Source: a virus (taxonomy: Duplodnaviria > Heunggongvirae > Uroviricota > Caudoviricetes). From it: DNA of 64,000 nt. Position numbers and translations under genes: made by a program. Each line of letters starts with the position of its first letter. Positions within the stretch are counted from its first letter, which is position 1. This document shows positions 6,875-49,045 of the stretch, in pieces. The stretch is taken from IMG/VR virus record IMGVR_UViG_3300016457_000036, positions 7,253-71,252 of that record; one strand, 5' to 3'. The notes under the pieces were generated by a model that made no database searches, was not told the DNA's origin, and saw only the letters and a list, made by a program, of their open reading frames with translations.

Positions 6875-7146
6875 ACCCCGAACTGAAACCACTCACCCTC
6901 ACTATCTCATCTTATGGTAATCACTATAAGAAGTTACGTGCTTCACTCCGTCACTCACAGAACGCTGTTGAAGAGAAGATACTTCAGTATAAGCACGACC
7001 ATATCAGTAATGATACGGAAGAAGACTCTCACGAATACGAGTCATATATGGAACTATTCAGTACTCGTGATTTCTATCGTAAGCTACTTGCCGACCTAGA
7101 AGCACAGTATAAAATAGCACAACCTCACCTTGTAGAAGAATACTAA
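6871..7146 (+). CDS. hypothetical protein (91 aa)
   Basis: AAGGAGG Shine-Dalgarno sequence; ATGA overlap with upstream gene. Confidence 0.45.
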   Translation: MNPELKPLTLTISSYGNHYKKLRASLRHSQNAVEEKILQYKHDHISNDTEEDSHEYESYMELFSTRDFYRKLLADLEAQYKIAQPHLVEEY

Positions 7147-7147
7147 G

Positions 7148-7171
7148 GAGCTACCGCTCTTTTGTTTTTTT
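7148..7171 (+). terminator. putative rho-independent terminator (short GAGC/GCTC stem + TTTTGTTTTTTT)
   Basis: 4-bp stem then 12-nt T-rich run immediately after stop of 6871..7146. Confidence 0.35.
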
Positions 7172-7287
7172 GTACGTTGTTCTTTTATCTTGAGTACAAG
7201 CATCCTTGCCCTTTAGATTTCTATGAGCTTTTAGAGAGATTAATTATTATCTCAGTAACGGAGTAAACCGTACAAATCATAATCCCA

Positions 7288-7578
7288 ATGCAACTTTATA
7301 AAGGCTTTTATATGCAAACTCCAACTATTCCTAACCCAATGATACCTAACCAAATGGTAGTCGCACCCGCTGAACGTGAAACAAAAACTGTTGACTATCG
7401 TATCAATGTATCTTCTAAAGCAGGTGATGTACGTAGTGCAGGTATTCTTAAATTGTGGAAGCGTTTCGATGAGACTCAACAAGCCGCACTTGTAGCTATC
7501 TTGTCTACATCAGAATCTGTAGTGGAAATTACTCCAATGTCAGAAGAAGCAACAACAGGTGTGAAGGACGAGTTCTAG
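7288..7578 (+). CDS. hypothetical protein (96 aa)
   Basis: ORF after promoter-like motif D. Confidence 0.4.
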   Translation: MQLYKGFYMQTPTIPNPMIPNQMVVAPAERETKTVDYRINVSSKAGDVRSAGILKLWKRFDETQQAALVAILSTSESVVEITPMSEEATTGVKDEF

Positions 7579-7736
7579 GACTCTCCCTCTCCACCGTAAC
7601 TAGCTAGAGACACGAGTTTTGCTAATGTACTCACCCTCTACCTAGTTTGACTGTATGTGACTTATGTCCTACAGTCTTTTTTTGCTTGTATTAGGCTTTA
7701 TGCCTTTCCCCACTTGACTATCTTAAAAGGATTAAT

Positions 7737-35865: not shown

Positions 35866-35940
35866 CGAGGTATGGCCAAGTGGTAAGGCGGCGGCTTTTG
35901 GTGCCGTTATTCGGGGGTTCGAGTCCCTCTACCTCTACCA
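35866..35940 (+). tRNA. tRNA-Gln (anticodon TTG)
   Basis: cloverleaf: D-arm GCCAAGTGGTAAGGC, anticodon stem GCGGC/GCCGT loop TTTTGGT, T-arm GGGGG-TTCGAGT-CCCTC, CCA encoded; resembles E. coli tRNA-Gln. Confidence 0.8.
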
Positions 35941-36106
35941 TATGGTCGAAAGACCACCATGACTAAACAACAGGTAACTTCAGAAAGCTTATAGTGAGCT
36001 ACGTTGAAGATTAAAAGCATCACGTACTAATGGATCACTAATCCATGAACGCAACGTCATCCTGTACTGCATACTAAGTTACAGTAGAGAATTGTTTAGT
36101 CTAAAT

Positions 36107-36190
36107 GTAAAGTAAAAGTTGTTCGGATACAGCACCGAGACTGTAAATCTCGTCTTTAGGGGAGTGGTTCGAGTCCACTACTTTACACCA
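36107..36190 (+). tRNA. tRNA-Tyr (anticodon GTA), long D/variable region
   Basis: acceptor GTAAAGT/ACTTTAC, anticodon stem CGAGA/TCTCG loop CTGTAAA, T-arm AGTGG-TTCGAGT-CCACT, CCA encoded; D-arm fold ambiguous. Confidence 0.6.
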
Positions 36191-36195
36191 TATGT

Positions 36196-36271
36196 TACGT
36201 TATAGCTCAGTTGGTAGAGCGTTTCGCTGTTAACGAAAATGTCCCTGGTTCGAGTCCAGGTTACGTAGCCA
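36196..36271 (+). tRNA. tRNA-Asn (anticodon GTT)
   Basis: TAGCTCAGTTGGTAGAGC D-arm, TTTCG-CTGTTAA-CGAAA anticodon arm, CCTGG-TTCGAGT-CCAGG T-arm, CCA encoded. Confidence 0.85.
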
Positions 36272-36443
36272 CATGATCGCAAGATCACCAAAAAAACAGG
36301 TACTCACCTGTACAAAAAGAGTAGCTAAATTTTTGACAACTTGGAAAGACAAGTCAGTAGTCCTCTCGAAGCCGAGGAGCAAATAGTTATTTAAGGGTAG
36401 AGCCTATATGCCTAGTCATACAATGATAACTAGCTACATAAGT

Positions 36444-36519
36444 GGGGAATTAGCTCAGCTGGGAGAGCGTCTGCCTTGCACGTAGAAGGTCAGCGGTTCG
36501 ATCCCGCTATTCTCCACCA
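36444..36519 (+). tRNA. tRNA-Ala (anticodon TGC)
   Basis: GGGGAAT acceptor with G3:U70, anticodon loop CTTGCAC, T-arm AGCGG-TTCGATC-CCGCT; near-identical architecture to E. coli tRNA-Ala. Confidence 0.85.
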
Positions 36520-36725
36520 AATATGGGACGAAAGTTAGCGAATACTGTCGGAGTCATGACCTTCAGGAGTGAGTAAAAATCTCACAGATCCCACCACTTA
36601 AATATGGTCCGACTAGAAATAGATTACCATGCGCGGTAAGGGAAGCCTAAAACTTTCTCGGCCACCACCTAAATATGGTCGTTACACGATCACCATCACA
36701 CACAAATTAAATAAGGAACTACCCC

Positions 36726-37487
36726 ATGTCAAAACCTGTATTACACGAATTACTTGCCGTAGAGCAAGGACTATCTGAAACAGCTAATCGTATCACTAAA
36801 GAGACGATCAAAACACTATCTACTAAGCAATCTATCTTTGCCGGTATGAACAAAGCACACACTATCTTCGCAGAAGATCAGCAACACCTGGTTCAAGCTA
36901 CAGAGTACAAAGAAGTACAATCTACTGCAGATGAGCAGATCAACTTTCTAAACACAGAGATCGCTCGTTATTGGGACGTTACTCTACAAAAAGAAGAGGC
37001 AAACCAACGTGCTAATGCAGACATCATTATTGATGGTACTACTCTCGCTACAAATGTACCTTCTATCGTTTTACTAGGTCTTGAAAAGAAACTTACTTCT
37101 CTTCTAGCAGTTTATAACGCATTACCTACACTTGATGCTGCTACAGCTTGGGAAAGTGATCCATCTGCATCTAAAGATGGTATCTTTCGTACTAAGTATC
37201 CTGAAGAGCGTCAGCACAACGTAACTGAGCTAAAGTATATCATTGCTGCACCTGCAACTGAGCGTCATCCTGCACAAGTCAAAGAGCAAAGTATTACTGA
37301 TGTTATCGGTAAATATGTGATCACTACTTTCTCAGGTGCTATCACTTCATACGACAAAGCAGCACGTCTTGAGAAGCTTACTAAACTGATCCGTGCTGTG
37401 AAAAAAGCTCGTCAACGTGCCAACAACACAGAAGTAAACACAGATCTTACTATCGGTGCTACTATGCTAAAATACATTAACGATTAA
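36726..37487 (+). CDS. hypothetical protein (253 aa) embedded in stable-RNA island
   Basis: ATAAGGAACTACCCCATG; long clean ORF. Confidence 0.5.
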   Translation: MSKPVLHELLAVEQGLSETANRITKETIKTLSTKQSIFAGMNKAHTIFAEDQQHLVQATEYKEVQSTADEQINFLNTEIARYWDVTLQKEEANQRANADIIIDGTTLATNVPSIVLLGLEKKLTSLLAVYNALPTLDAATAWESDPSASKDGIFRTKYPEERQHNVTELKYIIAAPATERHPAQVKEQSITDVIGKYVITTFSGAITSYDKAARLEKLTKLIRAVKKARQRANNTEVNTDLTIGATMLKYIND

Positions 37488-37806
37488 TTCGTTAGTGGGT
37501 AAACGAAAGTTTGCCACATTAAGTGTATTTACAATAGCTATGTAACGTAGGCATTAAATGATAGTATATGTCTCAAAGCACAGCTAGGAAACTATCCTTG
37601 TTCATTCGGCTATGCATAGTTGTATGATCACCTGTAAATACATTTACTGTGGTAAATTTATCTTTACATTTATTCACCCTACTATACTCTAACTGAGGTG
37701 GTAGGTTATTTTCATTCTTATTTTATCACCACGATAAATTAAGTTCTGAAGACCTTTAAAAAAGAGTACACCACTCGCGCAGAACTACTTCTTTTAGTTA
37801 ACGTAC

Positions 37807-37868
37807 ATGGGTTCGAGTCCCATTCCGGCCACCATTTAATACGGCCGGGTGATGTAAGCGGCTTACAT
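37807..37868 (+). ncRNA. permuted tRNA-like element P1: 3' half (T-arm + TCCGGCC-A-CCA) followed by matching 5' acceptor GGCCGGG
   Basis: ATGGG-TTCGAGT-CCCAT T-arm, acceptor 3' strand, ACCATTTAATAC spacer, then complementary 5' strand and 8-bp palindrome ATGTAAGCGGCTTACAT. Confidence 0.4.
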
Positions 37869-37940
37869 CGTTAATATAATTTATCTTAAAAAGTAGTTAC
37901 TAGCAACTAATAGGTTGAACATCATTTAACACAAAAATTT

Positions 37941-38010
37941 GAAGGTTCGAGTCCTTCCCCGCCTACCATTACTTTACAGGCGGGTAGTCGAATTGGTTAT
38001 AGACGTTTGT
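37941..38010 (+). ncRNA. permuted tRNA-like element P2: T-arm + CCCGCCT-A-CCA, spacer, 5' half AGGCGGG-TA-GTCG...
   Basis: GAAGG-TTCGAGT-CCTTC T-arm; 5' acceptor AGGCGGG perfectly complementary 13 nt downstream followed by D-arm-like GTCGAATTGGTTATAGAC. Confidence 0.4.
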
Positions 38011-38019
38011 ATAATGCAC

Positions 38020-38052
38020 GACAGAGGAAATAAAGGTTATTATTCCTCTGTC
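38020..38052 (+). other. strong hairpin (10-bp stem GACAGAGGAA / TTCCTCTGTC, 13-nt loop)
   Basis: perfect 10-bp inverted repeat in ORF-free region. Confidence 0.6.
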
Positions 38053-38297
38053 TCAAAACATAGCTCTAGGGGTATATACGTATTGTAGTACTTAGTAGTG
38101 TGGATCACGGACTACAATCCCGATCTCGTATTTTGTCTCGTCCCGCAAGGATGTACAGACAGAGCGACAAAACGCTGCGGTGTACCCTGAGAGGTGTGTT
38201 TTAAAGCCACCACAAGATTCTGTAGTAATAGTCTCTAATGCTGTAAGTATGGCACTACTTGTAATAGTGTCAGGATCACTTACTGTATTACGTCCGA

Positions 38298-38419
38298 CAT
38301 GACGTTAAACATGACATTACTTTGTGATTAAAGTAGTTACCGAGAACGTAGACTAATAATCTACTCAGTACCGGACCGGCATGACGTTAAACATGACATT
38401 ACTTTGTGATTAAAGTAGT
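38298..38419 (+). repeat. two perfect 40-bp direct repeats (CATGACGTTAAACATGACATTACTTTGTGATTAAAGTAGT) 42 bp apart
   Basis: copies at 38298-38337 and 38380-38419; each contains ACTTT-GTGATT-AAAGT inverted repeat. Confidence 0.7.
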
Positions 38420-38736
38420 CAGTACAGACTTAAAAAACATAATCATATATTCACGATTATTTTTATTGTGACTGATAGGATAGACTATCTCCTGCTGCGG
38501 ATTCGCGGTGGGGTAACATATAAGGTAATAATTATGAGTAATCTTAAAAATGCAATCGTACAACAGTTAATAACAGAAGACGCTGCAATCTATAAAAACA
38601 ATGATAAATATATCCACATCTACGGACGAGAAGATGCAGATTGGGGTATAGATATTTACGATGGAATGGATTATAATGTTCCTTCATTTTCCTGTATAAT
38701 GGAAAAAGGCACAGCAGCTGAAGCTTTCGATTACGC

Positions 38737-38811
38737 GGGTGAGTCGTCTAACGGTTAGGGCCCGCCTCTCATAAAGGCGGTATCAGAGTTCGATTCTCTG
38801 CTTACCCACCA
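38737..38811 (+). tRNA. tRNA-Met/Ile2 (anticodon CAT), elongator-type
   Basis: acceptor GGGTGAG/CTTACCC (G1-C72 paired), anticodon arm CGCCT-CTCATAA-AGGCG, T-arm CAGAG-TTCGATT-CTCTG, CCA encoded. Confidence 0.7.
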
Positions 38812-39262
38812 TTTAGCACAGCCTAGTGCATAGAGCCTACATGGTTAAAGGCTTGAGTATATGTAAGAAATACCTATCTTAACATAACTCTTAATCTATG
38901 TACTATGGTGTGCTTTGAGGCATACACAACGAGTTCTTCTTTGATGTAACTCAGCATAAAGTTCTCAGCTCCCACCGGCCCAGTTTAATCAGCAGCGATG
39001 GCCTATAACTCAGAAATGATTAGCGAGACTCAGGTTCCTCTTTTAGGCTCCTTCCTTGTCTCGCGATTAAGCATACCTTTCATTACATTATGTGTACTGA
39101 CAGGTGTGCTTTTTTGGTAATTATGTACACATGGTGGAGATTTCTAGTAGTGGCGGAATTCAATAAAGACGCTAAATAACAGTTCCTCCGTTCAGAGTGC
39201 TGTATGAGCTAACTTGAAAATTAGCAATTCATAGGTGGAAGTCCTGTGACTACTTTATATAT

Positions 39263-39610
39263 GGGCGCAACATGGCTTCGACAGGAAATTGGTCCCACCC
39301 CGAATGATACAAGGTATGATACTACCTCAACAGATCATTAACTTAAATGTAAACAACATGAATTTTAATCCTACTGCAGAGCTTGCTGCTGCGTAGTGTG
39401 GACCGGGACAGACACATAACCAACTTGTCCCACACTTTAAGTCTTTGCCTTGTTGCAGAGCCTAGCACCGTAAGTTCACGCTAGTAACCAATTCTTACAT
39501 CCTTGTTTTACAGTTTTACGCATATTGACTGTGATAAATTGCACGTATCGTGAAGTTCGGTTAAAAAGATGATTTTTTGGACTCGGGTTCGATACCCGAT
39601 GCGTCCACCA
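39263..39610 (+). ncRNA. ssrA: tmRNA (ssrA-like transfer-messenger RNA), tag reading frame ...NFNPTAELAAA-stop
   Basis: 5' GGGCGCA-ACATGG-CTTCGAC-AGG and 3' GGAC-TCGGG-TTCGATA-CCCGA-TGCGTCC-A-CCA match tmRNA consensus; internal ORF gca gag ctt gct gct gcg tag ends 39396. Confidence 0.75.
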
Positions 39611-39762
39611 TACGCTATCCCCTTGATACTATTATGTAGTATGAATGGGGTTGCGAAGCTGCAGATGCAACCACTAAAATCTTATACGCAGCATAGTACT
39701 TCTTCATTTCTATTAAAACTATGAAGAACGCTCCCGGGTATGGTCGGCTAGGGAGAGTAGTG

Positions 39763-39785
39763 TTGACCTTTGTTTATGATATAAT
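39763..39785 (+). promoter_or_regulatory. promoter candidate: TTGACC ... extended -10 TGATATAAT
   Basis: perfect TGnTATAAT at 39777-39785; -35-like TTGACC at 39763 (short spacer). Confidence 0.4.
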
Positions 39786-39824
39786 TTTCTCAGTTCCTTT
39801 ATACATGTTAAGTATATAATTGTA

Positions 39825-40021
39825 GTTACTCCGCCTTCGGGCATCACATTTGGGATATGACTTACTGCAATTTCTAACTTAGCATTTATAAGGGAATATG
39901 TACACAGTTACTCCTGCTGTTTTCAGCAATTCACTGCTAATGATTTTACTGTGCACACTCTCCCTGTTAGTCTTCAATAAACTCAAGTTTATGGTATTGG
40001 TTACTCCGCCTTCGGGCACCA
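39825..40021 (+). repeat. repeated leader element GTTACTCCGCCTTCGGGCAYCA (x2; GTTACTCC x3) each preceded by AT-rich -10-like box
   Basis: copies at 39825-39846 and 40000-40021, third GTTACTCC at 39907; contain C-UUCG-G tetraloop. Confidence 0.5.
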
Positions 40022-40098
40022 AACTTCTAATTTGATCTTACCTCTACTACTCACTTGAGTTTATTGAACACTATCACTAAAACTAAAAGGAAATCCCC

Positions 40099-42294
40099 AT
40101 GAAAAACTTAGCACTACAACGCCTAATCTATGGCATGACAAACACTATCGTAATCGAGTCTACCGGTCCTAAAGAAGTCGTAACTGAAATCGAGGCTGTA
40201 CGTTCTAGCATGGCTATCGAGGGCTTTATCTTCCGTCCGGGTTTCGCTAACACTACTGAACTAACTGACTATACAGAAGCTGATTGGGCTGCTATGTATG
40301 CACAATATTCTTTAACATATGGATGGAGTACACTTTACACAGCCCGTACAGGTAATAATCCTGTTACTGTACTTGATGCATACTTTACTGATCTTGGCAA
40401 TATCTTTTCTCCGCTTGAAGTAGCGCCTAAAGCGTATTATGTGGCTGAGCCTGTTTTCTATGAAAAAGTATTGACTGACATCGCTGAGTCAAAAATTGTA
40501 TTACGTACACATCAGATCGAGATCTTAAATCTTATGCCTATCGAAATACTTGCTAAAATTTATGAGAATGTCGTATTCACCATCATAGAAACTCGTATTC
40601 TGTTTCTAAAACGTCTCATTACTGAAGGTAAAGAAATCGCTGCATTTACTACACCTGAAGAGATTGTAAAATTCGTCATAGCTGTCTTTCCTAAGAACAC
40701 AGAGCCATACACAGGACAAGTCACTAACGACATATTAAAAGCAATCGAAGTAAAAATTCCTACATCTATGCGTAAAGTTATTGTTCGCTCTATTCAAAAG
40801 ATGAGCTACTTTAAAGCTATCAGAGGCATGAAGAAAAACAAAAACTTTTGGAAACGTCTATTTAAGCAACTTGCATGGCAATCCGAAGAAAAAATGATCG
40901 CTACTGCTCGCTTTCAAAACTACCTTGATATTAAAGGTACTGTCTTCAATGAGACTATCATCACACCTCGCTCAGACATCGAACAGTATCGTCGTGAAGG
41001 TAACTTAGAAACTGCTTTTATTGTTGAGATGAAAAACACAGGCGGGATGTTACGAAATCTTATGTCATACCTACGTTATCCGATCGGATCTACTTATGCT
41101 AAAAAAGTAAGCATGGCACCTGATGCAAAAGAACACGGTATTGCTATGTACTTTAATAAAAAAGTACAGGAAGAAGTACGTGCTACTGTCGTTCATTCTG
41201 ACATTACCAATGTCTTAGCATCTGACGAATTTATGAAGTGTCTTACTCAGGCTAACTCTAAGCTACTATGGCAAGTACTCACACTTCTACAGGACAAGAA
41301 AAACACAGTCCCTAAATCTGTTCGTGTTGTAAACGACACTAAGATCAAATACTCAAAAGCTTTACCGGGTATCGATCCTAAAATGACTGAGCTTGCTAAA
41401 AAAGCCATTAAAAAGGCTATCAAAAAAGTGAAACGTGCTGAAAATGCATCTCTTGGTAAAGTTTACATAGACAAAACACTTAAAAACTACGCTATGCAGT
41501 TCTCAGGTCGCTCAGAAACGTCAATCTCACTATCAGGTGAATACTTGTCTCCGGGAAGTAAAATTGACCTTACAGACCTTCTGAAGGGTGAAGATAAAAT
41601 CTTACGTATGGGTATTGCATGGACAGGTGCTTCATGTGATGTTGACCATGCTCTAAATATCTTCGGTATGCGTTCTATCTATTACGGTAATCCTACCTTA
41701 GCAGATACAGAAGGTCGTGTAGTTATCTCATCTTCAGGTGATATTACATCATGTAGTCCTGGTCTATTCAGTACAGAGATTATCGATATTGATGTAGATC
41801 AACTTGCTACGTCTAACGTAGAGAAGATCTTTAATTCTGCTCATATGTTTGCAGGTCCTACTTTCGATAAAATTGAATGTTATTGGTTCATGAATATCAT
41901 CGATAAAAAAGATCGTATCCTTGAAAAACGTAAAGTTGCAATCGCACTTGATGCAATGCAATATGCTATTAAGCTTCAAGAACCTACTCGTGCACAGGTA
42001 GGTTTCTCTGTCGATCTGAAAAAGAAAGAACTTGAAGTTTTAAATCTTCCATCAAAACAATCGCAGTATAATAATGCTGCTACTTGTAAAGAAGATTTTG
42101 AGAAGCTGTTAGCTGAACGTCCTAAGCAAAAATCATTGTATAAAGCAATGAAAACTGTTATCGCTAAAGATCAGCTGACTGATAATATTTTAGAAGCTGA
42201 CTTGATTATTTCTGCTGAACCTGATCAGCCTGCAGGCATTACTGTCTTGCATCCGGGCAGAGATGCAGTAGCACTACAAGAAATTATCTTTTAG
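40099..42294 (+). CDS. large hypothetical protein (731 aa)
   Basis: AAAAGGAAATCCCCATG; long clean ORF; no motif recognised. Confidence 0.6.
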   Translation: MKNLALQRLIYGMTNTIVIESTGPKEVVTEIEAVRSSMAIEGFIFRPGFANTTELTDYTEADWAAMYAQYSLTYGWSTLYTARTGNNPVTVLDAYFTDLGNIFSPLEVAPKAYYVAEPVFYEKVLTDIAESKIVLRTHQIEILNLMPIEILAKIYENVVFTIIETRILFLKRLITEGKEIAAFTTPEEIVKFVIAVFPKNTEPYTGQVTNDILKAIEVKIPTSMRKVIVRSIQKMSYFKAIRGMKKNKNFWKRLFKQLAWQSEEKMIATARFQNYLDIKGTVFNETIITPRSDIEQYRREGNLETAFIVEMKNTGGMLRNLMSYLRYPIGSTYAKKVSMAPDAKEHGIAMYFNKKVQEEVRATVVHSDITNVLASDEFMKCLTQANSKLLWQVLTLLQDKKNTVPKSVRVVNDTKIKYSKALPGIDPKMTELAKKAIKKAIKKVKRAENASLGKVYIDKTLKNYAMQFSGRSETSISLSGEYLSPGSKIDLTDLLKGEDKILRMGIAWTGASCDVDHALNIFGMRSIYYGNPTLADTEGRVVISSSGDITSCSPGLFSTEIIDIDVDQLATSNVEKIFNSAHMFAGPTFDKIECYWFMNIIDKKDRILEKRKVAIALDAMQYAIKLQEPTRAQVGFSVDLKKKELEVLNLPSKQSQYNNAATCKEDFEKLLAERPKQKSLYKAMKTVIAKDQLTDNILEADLIISAEPDQPAGITVLHPGRDAVALQEIIF

Positions 42295-42414
42295 TATTGA
42301 TGCGTTGAGTTCTTCCATGTCTCTTGTAAGTCATCGCTCCTTTAAGACTATGGGGATAGTCCTTAAATAATTTCCGTCGGGTTATTAACTTTTTCCCGGC
42401 GGTTTCCTAAATGT

Positions 42415-42491
42415 TAGAGATTAGCTCAGTTGGTAGAGCAATCCTCCGTAAAACAGAAGATGTGTCGAAGGTTCGAGTCCTTCATCTCGCC
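42415..42491 (+). tRNA. degenerate tRNA-like gene (possible pseudo-tRNA; anticodon arm not foldable)
   Basis: perfect D-arm TAGCTCAGTTGGTAGAGC and T-arm GAAGG-TTCGAGT-CCTTC, but acceptor has 2 mismatches and no 5-bp anticodon stem; no CCA. Confidence 0.3.
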
Positions 42492-45892: not shown

Positions 45893-46690
45893 ATGAAAAT
45901 AGTAATTTACGACATTGAAACCACAGCTATTGAACGTGACCTACAAGGCCTCGTAAGACGCATTTGGGCTATCGGTCTAAAAGTGATTGAAGATAACGTA
46001 GTACAGCCTACACAGGTCTTTAGTGCATATCATACTACAGGCACAGACGGCTCACTTGTTCACGCTAAAGCAATTATTCTCTCAGCAGATGTCCTAGTCG
46101 GCTTTAACTCTATATCATTTGATGATGCAGTACTTAGATCCCATTGGAAAATAGAGATACCTACCTCACTTGATTTGATGATACTTGCTAAATTGATGTT
46201 CACTAAAGATGAGCTATTCGCTATCGATATGGACCTCAACTTACCTAAAGACCTATGGGGCTCATTCAGTCTTAAAGCCTTCGCTCTAAGAATGGGTGCT
46301 GAACAGAAAATAGAGTTCGATGATTGGACTAAGCTCACACCTGACATGCTTACTTACTGTAAGGGTGACGTTGACATTACCTATAATTTCTACGGCTTCC
46401 TGACACAGCATGAACGCTATCCTATCCCCACAGTAGCTAATCTTGAAATGCATGTAAAACGTCTTGTTGTAGATCAAGAACGAGCAGGCTTTCACTTTAA
46501 CTACGGAGCTGCTAGAATACTCAGCACTAAAATGCTCGGTGAAAAGTTTACACTTGAACGTAAGCTCACTAAAACTTTCACACCTCGCTTCTTACCGGAA
46601 GGGCAGCCTAAAAAAACTGATAATATGATCAAGTCTAAAGTATGGCTACCTAATAAAGACTACACTCCATTATTAGGAACTAAACTATGA
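45893..46690 (+). CDS. family-A DNA polymerase, N-terminal 3'-5' exonuclease part (265 aa)
   Basis: IVIYDIETTA (Exo I), VGFNSISFDDAVL (Exo II), YCKGDVDITY (Exo III-like YxxxD). Confidence 0.65.
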   Translation: MKIVIYDIETTAIERDLQGLVRRIWAIGLKVIEDNVVQPTQVFSAYHTTGTDGSLVHAKAIILSADVLVGFNSISFDDAVLRSHWKIEIPTSLDLMILAKLMFTKDELFAIDMDLNLPKDLWGSFSLKAFALRMGAEQKIEFDDWTKLTPDMLTYCKGDVDITYNFYGFLTQHERYPIPTVANLEMHVKRLVVDQERAGFHFNYGAARILSTKMLGEKFTLERKLTKTFTPRFLPEGQPKKTDNMIKSKVWLPNKDYTPLLGTKL

Positions 46691-46923
46691 ATAAACAACA
46701 TTCACTCAATACATTAGCACTCTTCGCTGTACGCTATGCATTGCCTCGCAACACATCGGCTGATTTTGCTACTACAGCATCTTTAAAACAATGGTGGCCT
46801 AAAATCTCAAAACGCGTACAAGAACAAATTATAAATGAGATCGAATCTGAAAAAGATCTCTATGGAAACAATCCTTGGTTATGGGACGATTTCCTAACTT
46901 GGACTAAAAAGGACATTAAATGA
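46687..46923 (+). CDS. hypothetical protein (78 aa) inserted between polymerase halves
   Basis: ATGA overlap with exo gene. Confidence 0.4.
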   Translation: MNKQHSLNTLALFAVRYALPRNTSADFATTASLKQWWPKISKRVQEQIINEIESEKDLYGNNPWLWDDFLTWTKKDIK

Positions 46924-47153
46924 TAACATGGATTAAATCACTAGCAATACGACTCAGTTACTACAATCAAAATACAGCAGATACTAAAACTGCTAGTAAC
47001 TACACTCTATTAATTGAGTATCTTAATAATCCTTCACATCCTGACTATATTATGCGGATACATACTGATAAAGATGACGGAAAATTTATTGATGTCAATC
47101 CTGAATGGATGCAAGCAGCGTGTGAAAAAATTAAAGCAATGGAGAAGTTATAA
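46920..47153 (+). CDS. hypothetical protein (77 aa)
   Basis: ATGA overlap. Confidence 0.4.
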   Translation: MITWIKSLAIRLSYYNQNTADTKTASNYTLLIEYLNNPSHPDYIMRIHTDKDDGKFIDVNPEWMQAACEKIKAMEKL

Positions 47154-47350
47154 TGTTAAGTGATATTGTATGTCCCTATTGCAACTGTTCTCATAGACAG
47201 GATCAAGAAGATGTAGGTGAGTGGCTCTATATAGAACTTAAAGAACCCTTTAATGAATGTGGTCATACTTTTGTATGTGCTGCGTGTGAGCGAGAATTTG
47301 AAGTATGTATTAATGTTACATATTCTTTCTCTACTGTAGAAATGGATTAA
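47153..47350 (+). CDS. zinc-ribbon protein (65 aa)
   Basis: CPYCNC...CAACE. Confidence 0.4.
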   Translation: MLSDIVCPYCNCSHRQDQEDVGEWLYIELKEPFNECGHTFVCAACEREFEVCINVTYSFSTVEMD

Positions 47351-47352
47351 AA

Positions 47353-47583
47353 ATGAGTGATAAAATGATAATGGAACAAGAGTACTGTGTAATCTGTAAC
47401 GGTACAGGTGTAGCACGTGTAGGCTTAGGCCATGCAATTTATAGAAATATAACTTGTGACCATACACTAGCTAAGTCCGAGTTTCAAAGACACCTAGACT
47501 TTCTGTTAGAGGATCGTAAAGAAACTGATGATGCTATTGCACAATGGGAAGAAGCCTCAGAGCACTCCGAGTTTATAGAGTAA
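47353..47583 (+). CDS. hypothetical protein (76 aa)
   Basis: CVICNGTG motif. Confidence 0.4.
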   Translation: MSDKMIMEQEYCVICNGTGVARVGLGHAIYRNITCDHTLAKSEFQRHLDFLLEDRKETDDAIAQWEEASEHSEFIE

Positions 47584-47587
47584 GCTT

Positions 47588-49045
47588 ATGCTGTCTCCTT
47601 TCACAGAACCGTGGCACTATGTCAAGAAGCTTACTTGGATACCTGATAACTCATATTCTGTCTCCGGTATACTCACATTCAACAGAAAAAAGAAACGAAA
47701 AATGTTTAAAAAATCTGATATGTTTCACGCTCAACCTGTACGTGGCATACATGAAATTAAGTTTCCTTCTAAGTCTAAAATAAAATGGTTTGCCATTCCT
47801 ATGCGTATGACTATGCAATGGAAGAACGGTGAGTATCAAGATGTTAAATATACTAAATTCACAGCTACTGATAATCAGATTAAAATATGGCTTGACATCA
47901 TGTATGATTTTCAATTCACTAGCTATACCGAAAAAGGTAATGTGAAAGTGGATCGTGATGAGCTTGAAAAACTAGGTGATTACGGTGCAGATCTACGCCG
48001 CCTTATGAAACTTAAAAAAGATATTTCACAATTAAGCGGGACAGATAATTCACTTATCGCACGTTTTAATGAAAATACTCACTCTATACATGGTCGTGTA
48101 GATACACTAGGTGCTGCAACTCATCGATGTACCCACTCTGGACCTAACCTCGCGCAGATCCCACAGGGCGACTATTTCCGTGAACTATTTACGGTGCCTG
48201 AAGGCTACGTCCTGGTCGGGGCTGACCTCGCTAACATTGAAGTTAGAGTACTCGCGCACTACCTTGTAAATTTTGGTAATACTGACTACGCTAAAGCTGT
48301 ACTATCAAAAGATATGCATTGGTATCACGCAAGTCTTGCCGGCTTTATCGATGAAGGTATCGAGTATGATGAACATAACCCTATACACAAAGCTGCACGT
48401 ATGGCATCTAAAGTATTCTTCTTTGGATATTTATACGGACAGGGTGACACCATTCGTGGCTTTACACTATGGAAAGACGGCATCTTAAAATCGTATACAC
48501 AAGAAGAGTATGACTCTGCTTATGAACGTATACAGAACCGTCTTAATGATGCAGGACTTTTTCCACTTAAAACAGATCTCTACGTACAACCTACTGAACT
48601 ACTTATATTTCAAACTATTTACGGTAAACAAGTAGCCGATGACTTCTTAAAAAATCTTGATGGTATTAAAGATCTCATCAAAGACTGTCAGAAGCAATCT
48701 CGTAAAAAGGGTACTGTCACAGCGATAGATGGTCGTGAACTATACTCACGTTCTCCTCACTCATCTCTGAACCTATTACTACAAGGCTCAGCAGGAGTAA
48801 TCGGAAAACAATGGATGGTGAACTACCATGCTCTAGCTGATGCACAGGGACTTAAAACACCTGACGATTGGTATCAGATGGCTTACATTCACGATGAGTT
48901 TCAATGTGCTGCTAAAAAACAGTACGGAGATATACTTGGTAAATGTCTTGAAGACGGAGCTATCCTCGTTGGTGATCAATTCAATATGAACCTTCCCATT
49001 AAAGCTGACTACGACATCGGTCAGTCATGGGCAGACACACACTAA
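47588..49045 (+). CDS. family-A DNA polymerase, C-terminal polymerase part (485 aa)
   Basis: motif A LVGADLANIEVRVLAH, motif B KAARMASKVFFFGYLYGQG, motif C YIHDEFQCAA. Confidence 0.8.
   Translation: MLSPFTEPWHYVKKLTWIPDNSYSVSGILTFNRKKKRKMFKKSDMFHAQPVRGIHEIKFPSKSKIKWFAIPMRMTMQWKNGEYQDVKYTKFTATDNQIKIWLDIMYDFQFTSYTEKGNVKVDRDELEKLGDYGADLRRLMKLKKDISQLSGTDNSLIARFNENTHSIHGRVDTLGAATHRCTHSGPNLAQIPQGDYFRELFTVPEGYVLVGADLANIEVRVLAHYLVNFGNTDYAKAVLSKDMHWYHASLAGFIDEGIEYDEHNPIHKAARMASKVFFFGYLYGQGDTIRGFTLWKDGILKSYTQEEYDSAYERIQNRLNDAGLFPLKTDLYVQPTELLIFQTIYGKQVADDFLKNLDGIKDLIKDCQKQSRKKGTVTAIDGRELYSRSPHSSLNLLLQGSAGVIGKQWMVNYHALADAQGLKTPDDWYQMAYIHDEFQCAAKKQYGDILGKCLEDGAILVGDQFNMNLPIKADYDIGQSWADTH

What the first reader, a model, noticed from the sequence alone, without database searches (positions are those of the whole stretch)
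45893..49045. Family-A DNA polymerase split into two genes by a ~900-bp insertion carrying four small ORFs
The 3'-5' exonuclease domain (45893-46690; YDIETT, FNSISFDD, YxxxD motifs) and the polymerase domain (47588-49045; motifs A, B, C) are separate ORFs. Between them sit four 65-78-aa ORFs, one a CxxC zinc ribbon. None shows HNH, GIY-YIG or LAGLIDADG motifs, so the insertion is not an obvious homing endonuclease or intein. Split family-B gp43 DNA polymerase genes with intervening inserts are known in some T4-like phages. The two halves would have to assemble as a heterodimer.
Basis: partly seen in the sequence, partly recalled or inferred. Interest (0 to 1): 0.55.

Follow-up and report, generated by a model that had tools for sequence, protein, structure and literature searches.

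The report
Two-gene phage DNA polymerase with cargo
An uncultured ~120-kb phage encodes its T7-type DNA polymerase as two separate genes, broken at the tip of the "thumb"; the break is old and shared by relatives, and the gap has become a slot where small accessory genes come and go, so this is a new variant of an already published phenomenon.

Summary
A 265-aa exonuclease ORF (45893-46690), four small ORFs (46687-47583) and a 485-aa polymerase ORF (47588-49045) lie head to tail. Together the two large ORFs make one complete, catalytically intact family-A polymerase.

It is not an assembly error: 13 contigs carry the exo protein, and six loci from three assembly sources match with 0 indels. 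It is not an intron: only 6 nt are non-coding and there is no ribozyme match, while the same search finds introns in relatives. There is no room for a split intein.

The same break point occurs in relatives down to 37% exo identity, but the gap content varies. I found 59 nt holding a remnant of the first cargo gene, 3 unrelated ORFs, 4 ORFs, 6 ORFs, 10 ORFs (6.9 kb), and more than 10 kb. So this is an old gene fission, and the gap gains and loses genes.

The break maps to about T7 gp5 residues 287-298, in the thumb-tip thioredoxin-binding loop. That differs from the published S-SBP1 split (about T7 203/204) and from the MEP401 split.

All six genes are under purifying selection. A two-subunit enzyme is the likely mechanism, but this is inferred. 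I rate it a new variant of a known kind, of moderate interest.

The parts
45893..46690 (+). polA N-terminal subunit: 3'-5' exonuclease domain plus the first thumb helices (265 aa)
   Evidence: ORF. PHROG phrog_17 'DNA polymerase' E 1.6e-22, profile positions 670-893. Pfam DNA_pol_A_exo1 scores 17.8 bits, below the 23.6 cut-off. T7-equivalent residues D7, E9, D77, Y155 and D159 are present. In the AF2 model (pLDDT 74) residues 1-172 form a confident exonuclease fold, followed by helices 179-197 and 204-228 and a disordered tail 229-265. The best PDB match is T7 DNA polymerase 6n7w_H, E 4.6e-07. It aligns to T7 gp5 1-287. dN/dS against L010 is 0.09.
46687..46923 (+). cargo gene s1 (78 aa), unknown function, member of a small phage protein family
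   Evidence: phrog_11947 E 1e-09. 67% identical to L010 ORF a and 78% to L067. dN/dS 0.15. 19 cluster representatives at E<1e-3, mostly 71-152 aa. Its start overlaps the exo stop (ATGA). A truncated remnant of it sits in the L011 gap.
46920..47153 (+). cargo gene s2 (77 aa), unknown function
   Evidence: 51% identical to L010 ORF b in the same order. dN/dS 0.31. No Pfam, PHROG or NCBIfam hit.
47153..47350 (+). cargo gene s3 (65 aa), CxxC...CxxC zinc-ribbon-like protein
   Evidence: Cys pairs C7/C10 and C42/C45 are visible in the translation. phrog_6504 E 1.6e-06. 67% identical to L010 ORF c. dN/dS 0.25.
47353..47583 (+). cargo gene s4 (76 aa), CxxCxGxG...CxH motif plus a conserved acidic C-terminal tail
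   Evidence: 74% identical to L010 ORF e and 86% to P0009. Invariant C12, C15, C35 and H37, and tail DDAI.QWEEA.EHSEFIE. dN/dS 0.07. Only two homologues among 5.8 billion proteins. The AF2 model is unusable (pLDDT 58).
47588..49045 (+). polA C-terminal subunit: rest of the thumb loop, then thumb, palm and fingers (485 aa)
   Evidence: Pfam DNA_pol_A 100.4 bits against a cut-off of 34.3. phrog_17 E 3e-61, profile positions 897-1233. PDB sequence match to T7 gp5, E 1.6e-26. Residues D213, E218, R271, K275, F279, Y283, H435-D436-E437 and the C-terminal H485 align to the T7 catalytic residues. Residues 1-110 precede the anchor at T7 354 and include a basic patch, NRKKKRKMFKK. dN/dS 0.05.

Best explanation
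The phage makes its replicative T7-type family-A DNA polymerase from two gene products. Subunit 1 (45893-46690) carries the proofreading exonuclease domain and the first helices of the thumb. Subunit 2 (47588-49045) carries the rest of the thumb, the palm and the fingers. The break lies in the surface loop at the thumb tip, the position where T7 gp5 carries its thioredoxin-binding insertion. The two chains can therefore pack into the normal polymerase fold, leaving two loose, solvent-exposed ends (inferred).

The fission is old and is inherited by a whole clade of uncultured ~90-120-kb phages. After it happened, the new intergenic site became a place where small genes are inserted and deleted. 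The four ORFs in this window are one such cargo set: real genes under selection, co-oriented and translationally coupled with the replication genes. They are not needed to hold the polymerase together, because a close relative has deleted them.

Shown: the gene structure, conservation of the break, variability and loss of the cargo, intact catalytic residues, and purifying selection. Inferred: non-covalent assembly of the two halves, and co-expression of the cargo.
For: - Completeness. Exo 1-260 aligns to residues 1-256, and pol 64-485 to residues 278-700, of an intact 700-aa relative, L001. The two halves abut in phrog_17. All exo and pol catalytic residues are present.
- Not an artefact. 13 contigs carry the exo protein; six loci from three assembly sources match with 0 indels.
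- Conserved break. All 8 exo homologues are stand-alone proteins of 257-280 aa. Exo tails end '...Y(I/T)PL(L/I)GTK*' or '...(P/K)W*', and pol heads begin 'M..P(F/Y)T.P'. These match the continuous sequence of the intact L003.
- Variable gap. 59 nt in L011, 717 nt with 3 unrelated ORFs in L012, 897 nt with 4 ORFs in the window, 1456 nt with 6 ORFs in L010, a YopX gene added in L067, 6943 nt with 10 ORFs (including Metallophos and an AAA ATPase) in L021, and more than 10 kb in L071.
- Cassette loss. The L011 gap retains the s1 5' end (33/44 nt; 0 of 5000 shuffles reach that score), followed by a strong AGGAG and the pol ATG.
- Selection. dN/dS is 0.05-0.12 for the polymerase halves and 0.07-0.31 for the cargo.
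- Break position. [quoted passage not shown]
- Structure. The exo ORF model has two post-exonuclease helices of lower confidence and a disordered tail, as expected for elements that need a partner.
- Precedent for assembly. An AF2 complex of the split S-SBP1 PolA superposes on an intact PolA (PMC10201439). Split gp43 43A/43B co-purify and are active (PMC2988022).
Against: - Nothing here shows directly that the two proteins bind each other or that the enzyme is active. A complex prediction could not be run with these tools.
- The alignment inside the thumb loop is approximate, so the break is only bounded between T7 residues 269 and 354.
- The NJ trees do not resolve whether there was one fission followed by re-fusion in L001/L003, or repeated fission at the same loop (internal bootstrap 40-52%).
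- In some relatives (L071) the pol half was not found within 10 kb, so co-occurrence of the two halves is not shown for every lineage.
- Synonymous sites are saturated, so the dN/dS values are rough.
- Cargo function remains unknown.
Confidence: 0.8

Rival explanations
1. The 897-bp insert is a recent mobile insertion (a homing-endonuclease cassette or similar) that split a previously intact polA in this phage.
For: Intact polA genes exist in relatives L001 and L003. This polymerase family is heavily invaded by mobile elements: two ORFs with HNH-like motifs lie upstream of the L001 polA, L003 has a group I intron with an HNH-like ORF, and L012 has four group I introns plus a mini-intein. Homing-endonuclease insertions are known to split phage genes (PMC2988022).
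Against: The same break point is found in lineages only 37-41% identical in exo, with unrelated or no cargo. L011 lost the cassette yet remains split. The gap holds no endonuclease family and the cassette has no convincing terminal repeats. The cargo genes have diverged along with the flanking genes (51-74% identical between the window and L010). An insertion may have caused the original fission, but it was not this cassette and it was not recent.
Confidence: 0.07
2. The insert is a self-splicing intron (group I or II) carrying ORFs, so a single polymerase is made after RNA splicing. Alternatively the halves are joined by a split intein or by translational bypassing.
For: Group I introns are common in this same gene in relatives and in phage polymerase genes generally (PMC10580990).
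Against: No Rfam intron match appears in 46300-48000 even at E<=10. The same method scores 101, 82, 57 and 49 bits on L012 and 33-43 bits on L003. Only 6 nt of the gap are non-coding. The four ORFs are conserved and under purifying selection. The exo ORF ends in a stop, and the pol ORF has its own ATG in all split relatives, with a strong AGGAG in L011. The halves lie 6.9 kb and more than 10 kb apart in other lineages. Both termini align colinearly with intact homologues, leaving no room for N- or C-intein blocks.
Confidence: 0.03
3. The two ORFs no longer work together. The pol ORF acts alone as an exonuclease-deficient polymerase, and the exo ORF is an independent nuclease or a decaying remnant.
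For: Exo and pol are unlinked by more than 6-10 kb in some relatives. Exo evolves faster than pol: 34-43% against 60-63% identity to L001/L003. Pfam's exo model scores below its cut-off.
Against: The exo ORF is under strong purifying selection (dN/dS 0.09-0.12) and all five catalytic residues are retained. It carries about 90 residues beyond the exonuclease fold that correspond to thumb elements of T7 gp5, up to residue ~287, and these have no role outside the polymerase. PolAs are reported to need the exo domain structurally for stability (PMC10201439, discussion).
Confidence: 0.07
4. The split is an assembly or sequencing artefact (frameshift or chimeric join), or a pseudogene.
For: The window comes from metagenomic assembly and no isolate exists.
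Against: The identical architecture appears in ENA, JGI and Logan assemblies with a few SNPs and no indels. The arrangement is conserved in diverged relatives. An 897-bp block of four conserved genes cannot be produced by a frameshift error. Both halves are under purifying selection.
Confidence: 0.01

Closest known systems
S-SBP1-like split T7-type PolA of marine cyanopodoviruses (Czernecki et al. 2023, NAR, PMC10201439)
   Same: A T7-related family-A polymerase is encoded as separate exo and pol genes through gene fission, not splicing. Both halves are retained in the same replication module, and assembly into the normal fold is inferred.
   Different: The S-SBP1 break maps to about T7 residues 203/204, the linker between the exonuclease and polymerase domains. 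Its exo is only 171 aa, and the two ORFs overlap by 40 nt with nothing between them. Here the break is about 85-95 residues further on, inside the thumb-tip loop, so the exo subunit carries part of the thumb. The halves are separated by 0 to 10 or more genes. The host phages are ~90-120-kb genomes rather than ~45-kb podoviruses. Pol identity to T7-like enzymes is only about 30%.
MEP401/MEP402-type OM43 phage DNA polymerase (Microbiol Spectr 2023, PMC10580990)
   Same: A family-A DNAP is encoded by two ORFs with a small ORF of unknown function between them. The inserted ORF has no endonuclease homology.
   Different: In MEP401 the first ORF holds exo plus the N-terminal part of the pol domain, so the break is inside the pol domain. 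There is a single inserted ORF, and the authors consider an intron possible. I did not analyse the MEP401 sequence here.
Split PolB gp43 (43A/43B) of T4-related Aeromonas phages 25 and 44RR, and the mobE-split nrdA of Aeh1 ('genes in pieces')
   Same: An essential replication enzyme is split into two polypeptides that reassemble. The content of the gap differs between related phages (untranslated spacer versus seg endonuclease), so the split may predate the current insert (PMC2988022).
   Different: Those cases involve a different polymerase family (B) and different phages, and their inserts include recognisable homing endonucleases. Activity of the split enzyme has been shown biochemically there, but not here.
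Intron- or intein-interrupted polA in sister lineages (L003, L012) and in phages such as SPO1 (SPO1 is from general knowledge, not tested here)
   Same: The same gene family is interrupted in sister lineages of this very clade.
   Different: Those interruptions are removed at the RNA or protein level and have ribozyme or intein signatures. The window's gap has neither.

Membership tests
Family A DNA polymerase (PolA), T7-like branch | Polymerase motifs A (D..E), B (R...K...F/Y..YG) and C (HDE), and a significant match to the DNA_pol_A model | tested here: met
   Pfam PF00476 scores 100.4 bits against a cut-off of 34.3. D213/E218, R271/K275/Y283 and H435-D436-E437 align to T7 D475/E480, R518/K522/Y530 and H653-D654-E655. 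The C-terminal His485 aligns to T7 H704. PDB best hits are T7 gp5 chains, E 1.6e-26.
Family A DNA polymerase (PolA), T7-like branch | DnaQ-type 3'-5' exonuclease domain with Exo I/II/III acidic residues | tested here: met
   D7, E9, D77, Y155 and D159 align to T7 D5, E7, D65, Y170 and D174. PHROG phrog_17 E 1.6e-22 and phrog_403 'exonuclease subunit' E 1.8e-10. The AF2 model's best PDB match is T7 DNA polymerase. Pfam PF01612 alone is below its cut-off (17.8 against 23.6).
Family A DNA polymerase (PolA), T7-like branch | Tyrosine at motif-B position B3 (T7 Y526), stated as typical of cluster #5 in PMC10201439 | tested here: not met
   The window has F279 at that position, as does its relative L001. 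The cluster #5 statement is. With only about 30% identity to T7, this clade is T7-related but not a typical cluster #5 member.
S-SBP1-like split PolA | Exo and pol encoded as separate genes | tested here: met
S-SBP1-like split PolA | Break at the exo/pol domain linker, created by a +1 frameshift, with overlapping adjacent ORFs | tested here: not met
   S-SBP1 breaks at about T7 203/204 with a 40-nt overlap. The window breaks at about T7 287-298, with an 897-nt gap holding four genes.
Group I/II intron-interrupted gene | Ribozyme core detectable between the exons, and exon 2 lacking its own start | tested here: not met
   There is no Rfam hit in the gap at E<=10. As a positive control, RF00028 scores 49-101 bits in L012 and 33-43 bits in L003. 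The gap is 99% coding. The pol ORF has its own conserved ATG.
'Fractured genes' (split intein plus free-standing endonuclease; PMC2677866) | N-intein at the end of half 1, C-intein at the start of half 2, and an endonuclease gene between them | tested here: not met
   The exo tail extends only about 8 residues, and the pol head about 9 residues, beyond or around the homologous junction of the intact L003. The extra ~40 aa in the pol head lack an HN[CST] end. No endonuclease family hits s1-s4. No dedicated intein HMM was run.
Homing-endonuclease 'genes in pieces' (Aeh1 nrdA-mobE, phage 25 gp43-seg) | Free-standing HNH or GIY-YIG endonuclease gene occupying the gap | tested here: not met
   None is found in the window. 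None is found among the gap ORFs I scanned in the relatives: L010 d and f, the three L012 ORFs, all ten L021 ORFs, and the L067 YopX.

The most novel reading that the evidence does not exclude
The gap genes are not just hitch-hikers. At least s4 would be a polymerase accessory subunit. It is the most conserved cargo gene (dN/dS 0.07), with a zinc-binding CxxC...CxH motif and an invariant acidic tail ending ...EHSEFIE. The idea is that it docks on the very basic thumb-tip segment of the pol subunit (NRKKKRKMFKK, KFPSKSKIKW). In T7 (from general knowledge, not tested here) the acidic C-terminal tails of gp4 and gp2.5 dock on the basic thioredoxin-binding loop. On this reading, splitting the gene at that loop would have opened a site for recruiting phage-encoded processivity or coupling factors in place of host thioredoxin.
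Probability: 0.07. Interest if true: 0.6.

Novelty: new variant of a known kind. Interest (0 to 1): 0.38.

Why it matters
Natural exo/pol fission of family-A polymerases was first described in 2023, for one cyanopodovirus group. This locus shows an independent fission at a different, structurally sensible site, the thumb-tip loop that in T7 holds the thioredoxin-binding insertion. It occurs in an unrelated, uncultured clade of ~100-kb phages.

The series of relatives captures what happens after a fission. The new intergenic site gains and loses genes, with gaps of 59 nt, 0.7, 0.9, 1.5, 6.9 and more than 10 kb, until the two halves are unlinked genes. That is a clear natural example of how multi-subunit enzymes and scattered operons can arise from one gene.

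It also identifies a permissive split site that could be used for engineering split PolA enzymes. And it warns annotators and polA-marker surveys that 'exo-less' or truncated viral PolAs may have their other half elsewhere in the genome.

Tried and rejected
- A concatenated s1-s4 query in the 5.8-billion-protein search returned nothing, not even the proteins themselves. That search was wasted.
- tblastn of s1, s3 and s4 against GenBank phages gave no match. NCBIfam and Pfam gave nothing meaningful for s1-s4.
- I suspected a short duplication at the break (exo IKSKVWLPNKDYT against pol VKKLTWIPDNSYS). Shuffling gave p of about 0.02 in the window only, and it was not significant in L010 or L011. 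The junction catalogue shows the true homologous junction is pol residues 3-9, so the resemblance lies in a ~40-aa lineage-specific insert. I rejected the idea as unsupported.
- The AF2 model of s4 had pLDDT 58, so I ran no fold search on it.
- I looked for terminal repeats or target-site duplications of the cassette and found only weak two-copy matches.
- Promoter and terminator scans showed no excess over shuffles, so there is no internal transcription unit.
- The genome-contig scan for prophage or host links found no relative. Megablast to GenBank phages found nothing.
- The primase links the phage distantly to Alteromonas podophages AD45-P1 to P4 (36-38% identity), but those have no comparable polA locus next to the primase.
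- The NJ phylogeny could not decide between one fission with re-fusion and repeated fission.
Full report
**1. The observation**

- exo, 45893-46690 (265 aa)
- s1, 46687-46923 (78 aa)
- s2, 46920-47153 (77 aa)
- s3, 47153-47350 (65 aa)
- s4, 47353-47583 (76 aa)
- pol, 47588-49045 (485 aa)

All are on the + strand. They are joined by overlapping or near-abutting stop and start codons (ATGA, ATGA, TAATG, then 2-nt and 4-nt spacers), so only 6 of the 897 gap nucleotides are non-coding.

The pol ORF passes Pfam DNA_pol_A (100.4 bits against a cut-off of 34.3). Pfam's exo model is below its cut-off for the exo ORF, but phrog_17 'DNA polymerase' matches exo at E 1.6e-22 (profile 670-893) and pol at E 3e-61 (profile 897-1233). 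The two halves therefore abut in one profile.

Against an intact 700-aa relative (L001), exo 1-260 aligns to residues 1-256 and pol 64-485 to residues 278-700, so nothing is missing.

All catalytic residues are in place: exo D7, E9, D77, Y155, D159; pol D213, E218, R271, K275, Y283, H435-D436-E437 and the C-terminal H485. No endonuclease family hits the four small ORFs. Two of them, not one, carry CxxC motifs (s3 and s4).

**2. Artefact, intron and intein are excluded**

*Artefact.* Thirteen contigs carry the exact exo protein. The six loci read, from ENA, JGI and Logan assemblies, are 99.84-100% identical over the 3153 bp (or over the part each covers), with a few SNPs and no indels.

*Intron.* Rfam finds nothing intron-like in 46300-48000 even at E<=10. 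The same search scores four group I introns in relative L012 (101, 82, 57 and 49 bits) and 33-43 bits in L003, which is a positive control on the same gene family. There is no excess of promoters or terminators.

*Intein.* The termini of both halves align colinearly with intact homologues, leaving no room for split-intein blocks.

**3. What the relatives show**

Every homologue of the exo half in the 5.8-billion-protein search is a stand-alone protein of 257-280 aa, down to 37% identity. Their contexts are:

| Locus | Exo identity | What lies between exo and pol |
|---|---|---|
| L010 | 78% | 1456 nt, six small ORFs. Four are same-order homologues of s1-s4 (67, 51, 67 and 74% identity); two are extra |
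| L067 | 81% | A YopX gene between exo and s1 |
| L011 | 68% | Only 59 nt, then pol |
| L012 | 41% | Three unrelated small ORFs (717 nt) |
| L015/L021 (one contig) | 41% | 6943 nt, ten genes, including a metallophosphoesterase and an AAA ATPase |
| L071 (= L017 contig) | 39% | No pol within 10 kb of exo |
| L002 | n/a (pol half only) | No exo within 6 kb |

The L011 gap begins with the first ~16 codons of s1 (MNKHHNMNTLAFFAVI*). This is 33/44 nt identical to the window's s1, and 0 of 5000 shuffles reach that score. It is followed by AGGAG and the pol ATG.

The break point itself is conserved. Exo tails end '...Y(I/T)PL(L/I)GTK*' (window, L010-like, L011, L017, L065, L066) or '...(P/K)W*' (L021, L012). 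Pol heads begin 'M..P(F/Y)T.P'. Together these match the continuous '...IKWDPVHQYTRPL...' of L003, which is intact at this site.

So the fission is old and shared. The gap content is variable cargo. L011 shows that the s1-s4 cassette can be deleted while the polymerase stays in two genes.

**4. Selection**

Between the window and L010 or L011, dN/dS is as follows:

| Gene | dN/dS |
|---|---|
| pol | 0.05 |
| exo | 0.09-0.12 |
| s4 | 0.07 |
| s1 | 0.15 |
| s3 | 0.25 |
| s2 | 0.31 |

Synonymous sites are saturated (pN/pS 0.17-0.50), so these values are rough. Even so, all six are functional genes.

**5. Where the break lies in the structure**

Two anchors frame the break: exo 225-237 (KLTKTFTPRFLPEG) aligns to T7 257-269 (KLTETFGSWYQPKG), and pol 111 onward (TSYTEKG) aligns to T7 354 onward (TKYTDKG). 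MAFFT places the break at about T7 287-298.

That is inside the T7 thioredoxin-binding domain, an insertion on the thumb tip. [quoted passage not shown]

The AF2 model of the exo ORF has mean pLDDT 74. It shows a confident exonuclease fold (1-172), then two long helices (179-197 and 204-228) of lower confidence, then a disordered tail. Its best PDB match is T7 DNA polymerase.

The 'exo' subunit therefore carries part of the thumb. The pol subunit starts in the loop with a lysine- and arginine-rich head. This argues that the two chains must assemble and that the break sits in a permissive surface loop. Assembly itself is inferred, not shown.

**6. History**

NJ trees place all these polymerases in one clade, with 100% bootstrap against T7 and P-PSG-11 (about 30% identity). 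The far-split L002/L021 pair is sister (99%) to a group holding the window subclade, L012 and the two intact genes L001 and L003. Internal nodes are weak (40-52%). There was either one old fission with later re-fusion, or repeated fission at the same loop. My data cannot decide between these.

The gene family is a hotspot for mobile elements:
- L003 has a group I intron with an HNH-like ORF inside polA.
- The L012 pol half has a mini-intein (ATHR|C...N|STHS) and four group I introns.
- L001 has two ORFs with HNH-like motifs just upstream of polA.

An endonuclease-type insertion could therefore have caused the original fission, but no trace of one remains in the window.

**7. Comparison with what is known**

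- *S-SBP1-like cyanopodoviruses.* Exo/pol fission of T7-like PolAs was published in 2023, arising from a +1 frameshift that left overlapping adjacent genes (PMC10201439). I mapped S-SBP1 (MT424636) onto T7. Its break is at about 203/204, the inter-domain linker, and its exo is only 171 aa. That is a different site from the one here.
- *MEP401-type OM43 phages.* Their DNAP is split inside the pol domain with one small unknown ORF between the parts, and may contain an intron (PMC10580990).
- *A cyanophage lineage* with a split DNAP is also reported (bioRxiv 10.1101/325100).
- *T4-related phages 25 and 44RR.* Their split PolB gp43 yields 43A/43B proteins that co-purify and are active, and the gap content differs between relatives (PMC2988022). 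This is the closest conceptual parallel.

The window's polymerase also has Phe at the T7 Y526 position, unlike the Tyr stated for cluster #5. It is T7-related but not a typical member.

**8. Cargo function**

- s1 belongs to a small family (phrog_11947). It has 19 cluster representatives, mostly 71-152 aa, and no known function.
- s3 is zinc-ribbon-like (phrog_6504).
- s4 is lineage-restricted, with only two homologues. It has an invariant C-x2-C...C-x-H motif and an invariant acidic tail. Its model was too poor to use.
- s2 has no relatives outside the subclade.

My best reading is that these are ordinary small accessory genes expressed with the replication module. A role for s4 as a polymerase partner is not excluded, but L011 does without it.

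**9. Verdict**

This is a new variant of a known kind of arrangement, of moderate interest (0.38).

Noticed in passing
window 39263-39610 (+), with tRNAs at 35866-42491: The phage carries a tmRNA gene (tag peptide VNNMNFNPTAELAAA; ARAGORN, and Rfam RF00023 at 56.2 bits against a 47-bit cut-off). It sits inside a cluster of six tRNA genes (Gln, Tyr, Asn, Ala, Met, Leu). A virus-encoded tmRNA is uncommon.
   Followed up: partly
L012 5387-8549 (Logan SRR24204721 contig): The pol half of this relative is in five coding pieces. A ~136-aa mini-intein is inserted at ATHR|C...N|STHS. Four group I introns of ~250-300 nt without ORFs follow (Rfam RF00028 at 101, 82, 57 and 49 bits). All of this is in addition to the exo/pol fission.
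   Followed up: partly
L003 6685-7782 and 9066-9362: This polA is intact at the thumb-tip site. It is interrupted after motif B (…KKFFFG) by a ~1.1-kb element containing an HNH-like ORF (6886-7719) and a partial group I intron match (7560-7729, 33 bits). A second group I intron match (43.5 bits) lies in the next gene downstream.
   Followed up: partly
L001 2016-2666 and 4188-5111: Two ORFs that read like free-standing HNH/NUMOD-type homing endonucleases (for example HINHIDNDGTNNHVSNLEW) lie just upstream of the intact polA of this relative. This rests on motifs seen by eye; no HMM was run.
   Followed up: no
L064 (Alteromonas phage vB_AmaP_AD45-P1, NC_021532.1) 66479-68744: In the closest cultured relatives by primase similarity (36-38%), the thyX thymidylate synthase is annotated as two CDSs. 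An HNH endonuclease gene and a GIY-YIG endonuclease gene lie between them, another 'gene in pieces'.
   Followed up: no
L017/L071 6816-9684 (L017 coordinates): Directly downstream of the stand-alone exo gene lies ~2.8 kb with almost no ORFs of 60 aa or more on either strand, and no tRNAs. I did not test it for non-coding RNA, introns or an alternative genetic code.
   Followed up: no
window 47588-49045, residue F279: The polymerase has Phe at the position of T7 Y526, the residue that (from general knowledge) governs dideoxynucleotide discrimination. Its relative L001 also has Phe there. The PolA reclassification paper states that T7-like cluster #5 enzymes have Tyr at this position.
   Followed up: partly
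L002 2420-8503 and L015 7176-7526, 10944-11183: A family of small paralogous proteins starting MD.F.Y or M.EFEY is scattered many times through the replication region of the far-split lineage, including inside the exo-to-pol interval. Their function is unknown.
   Followed up: no
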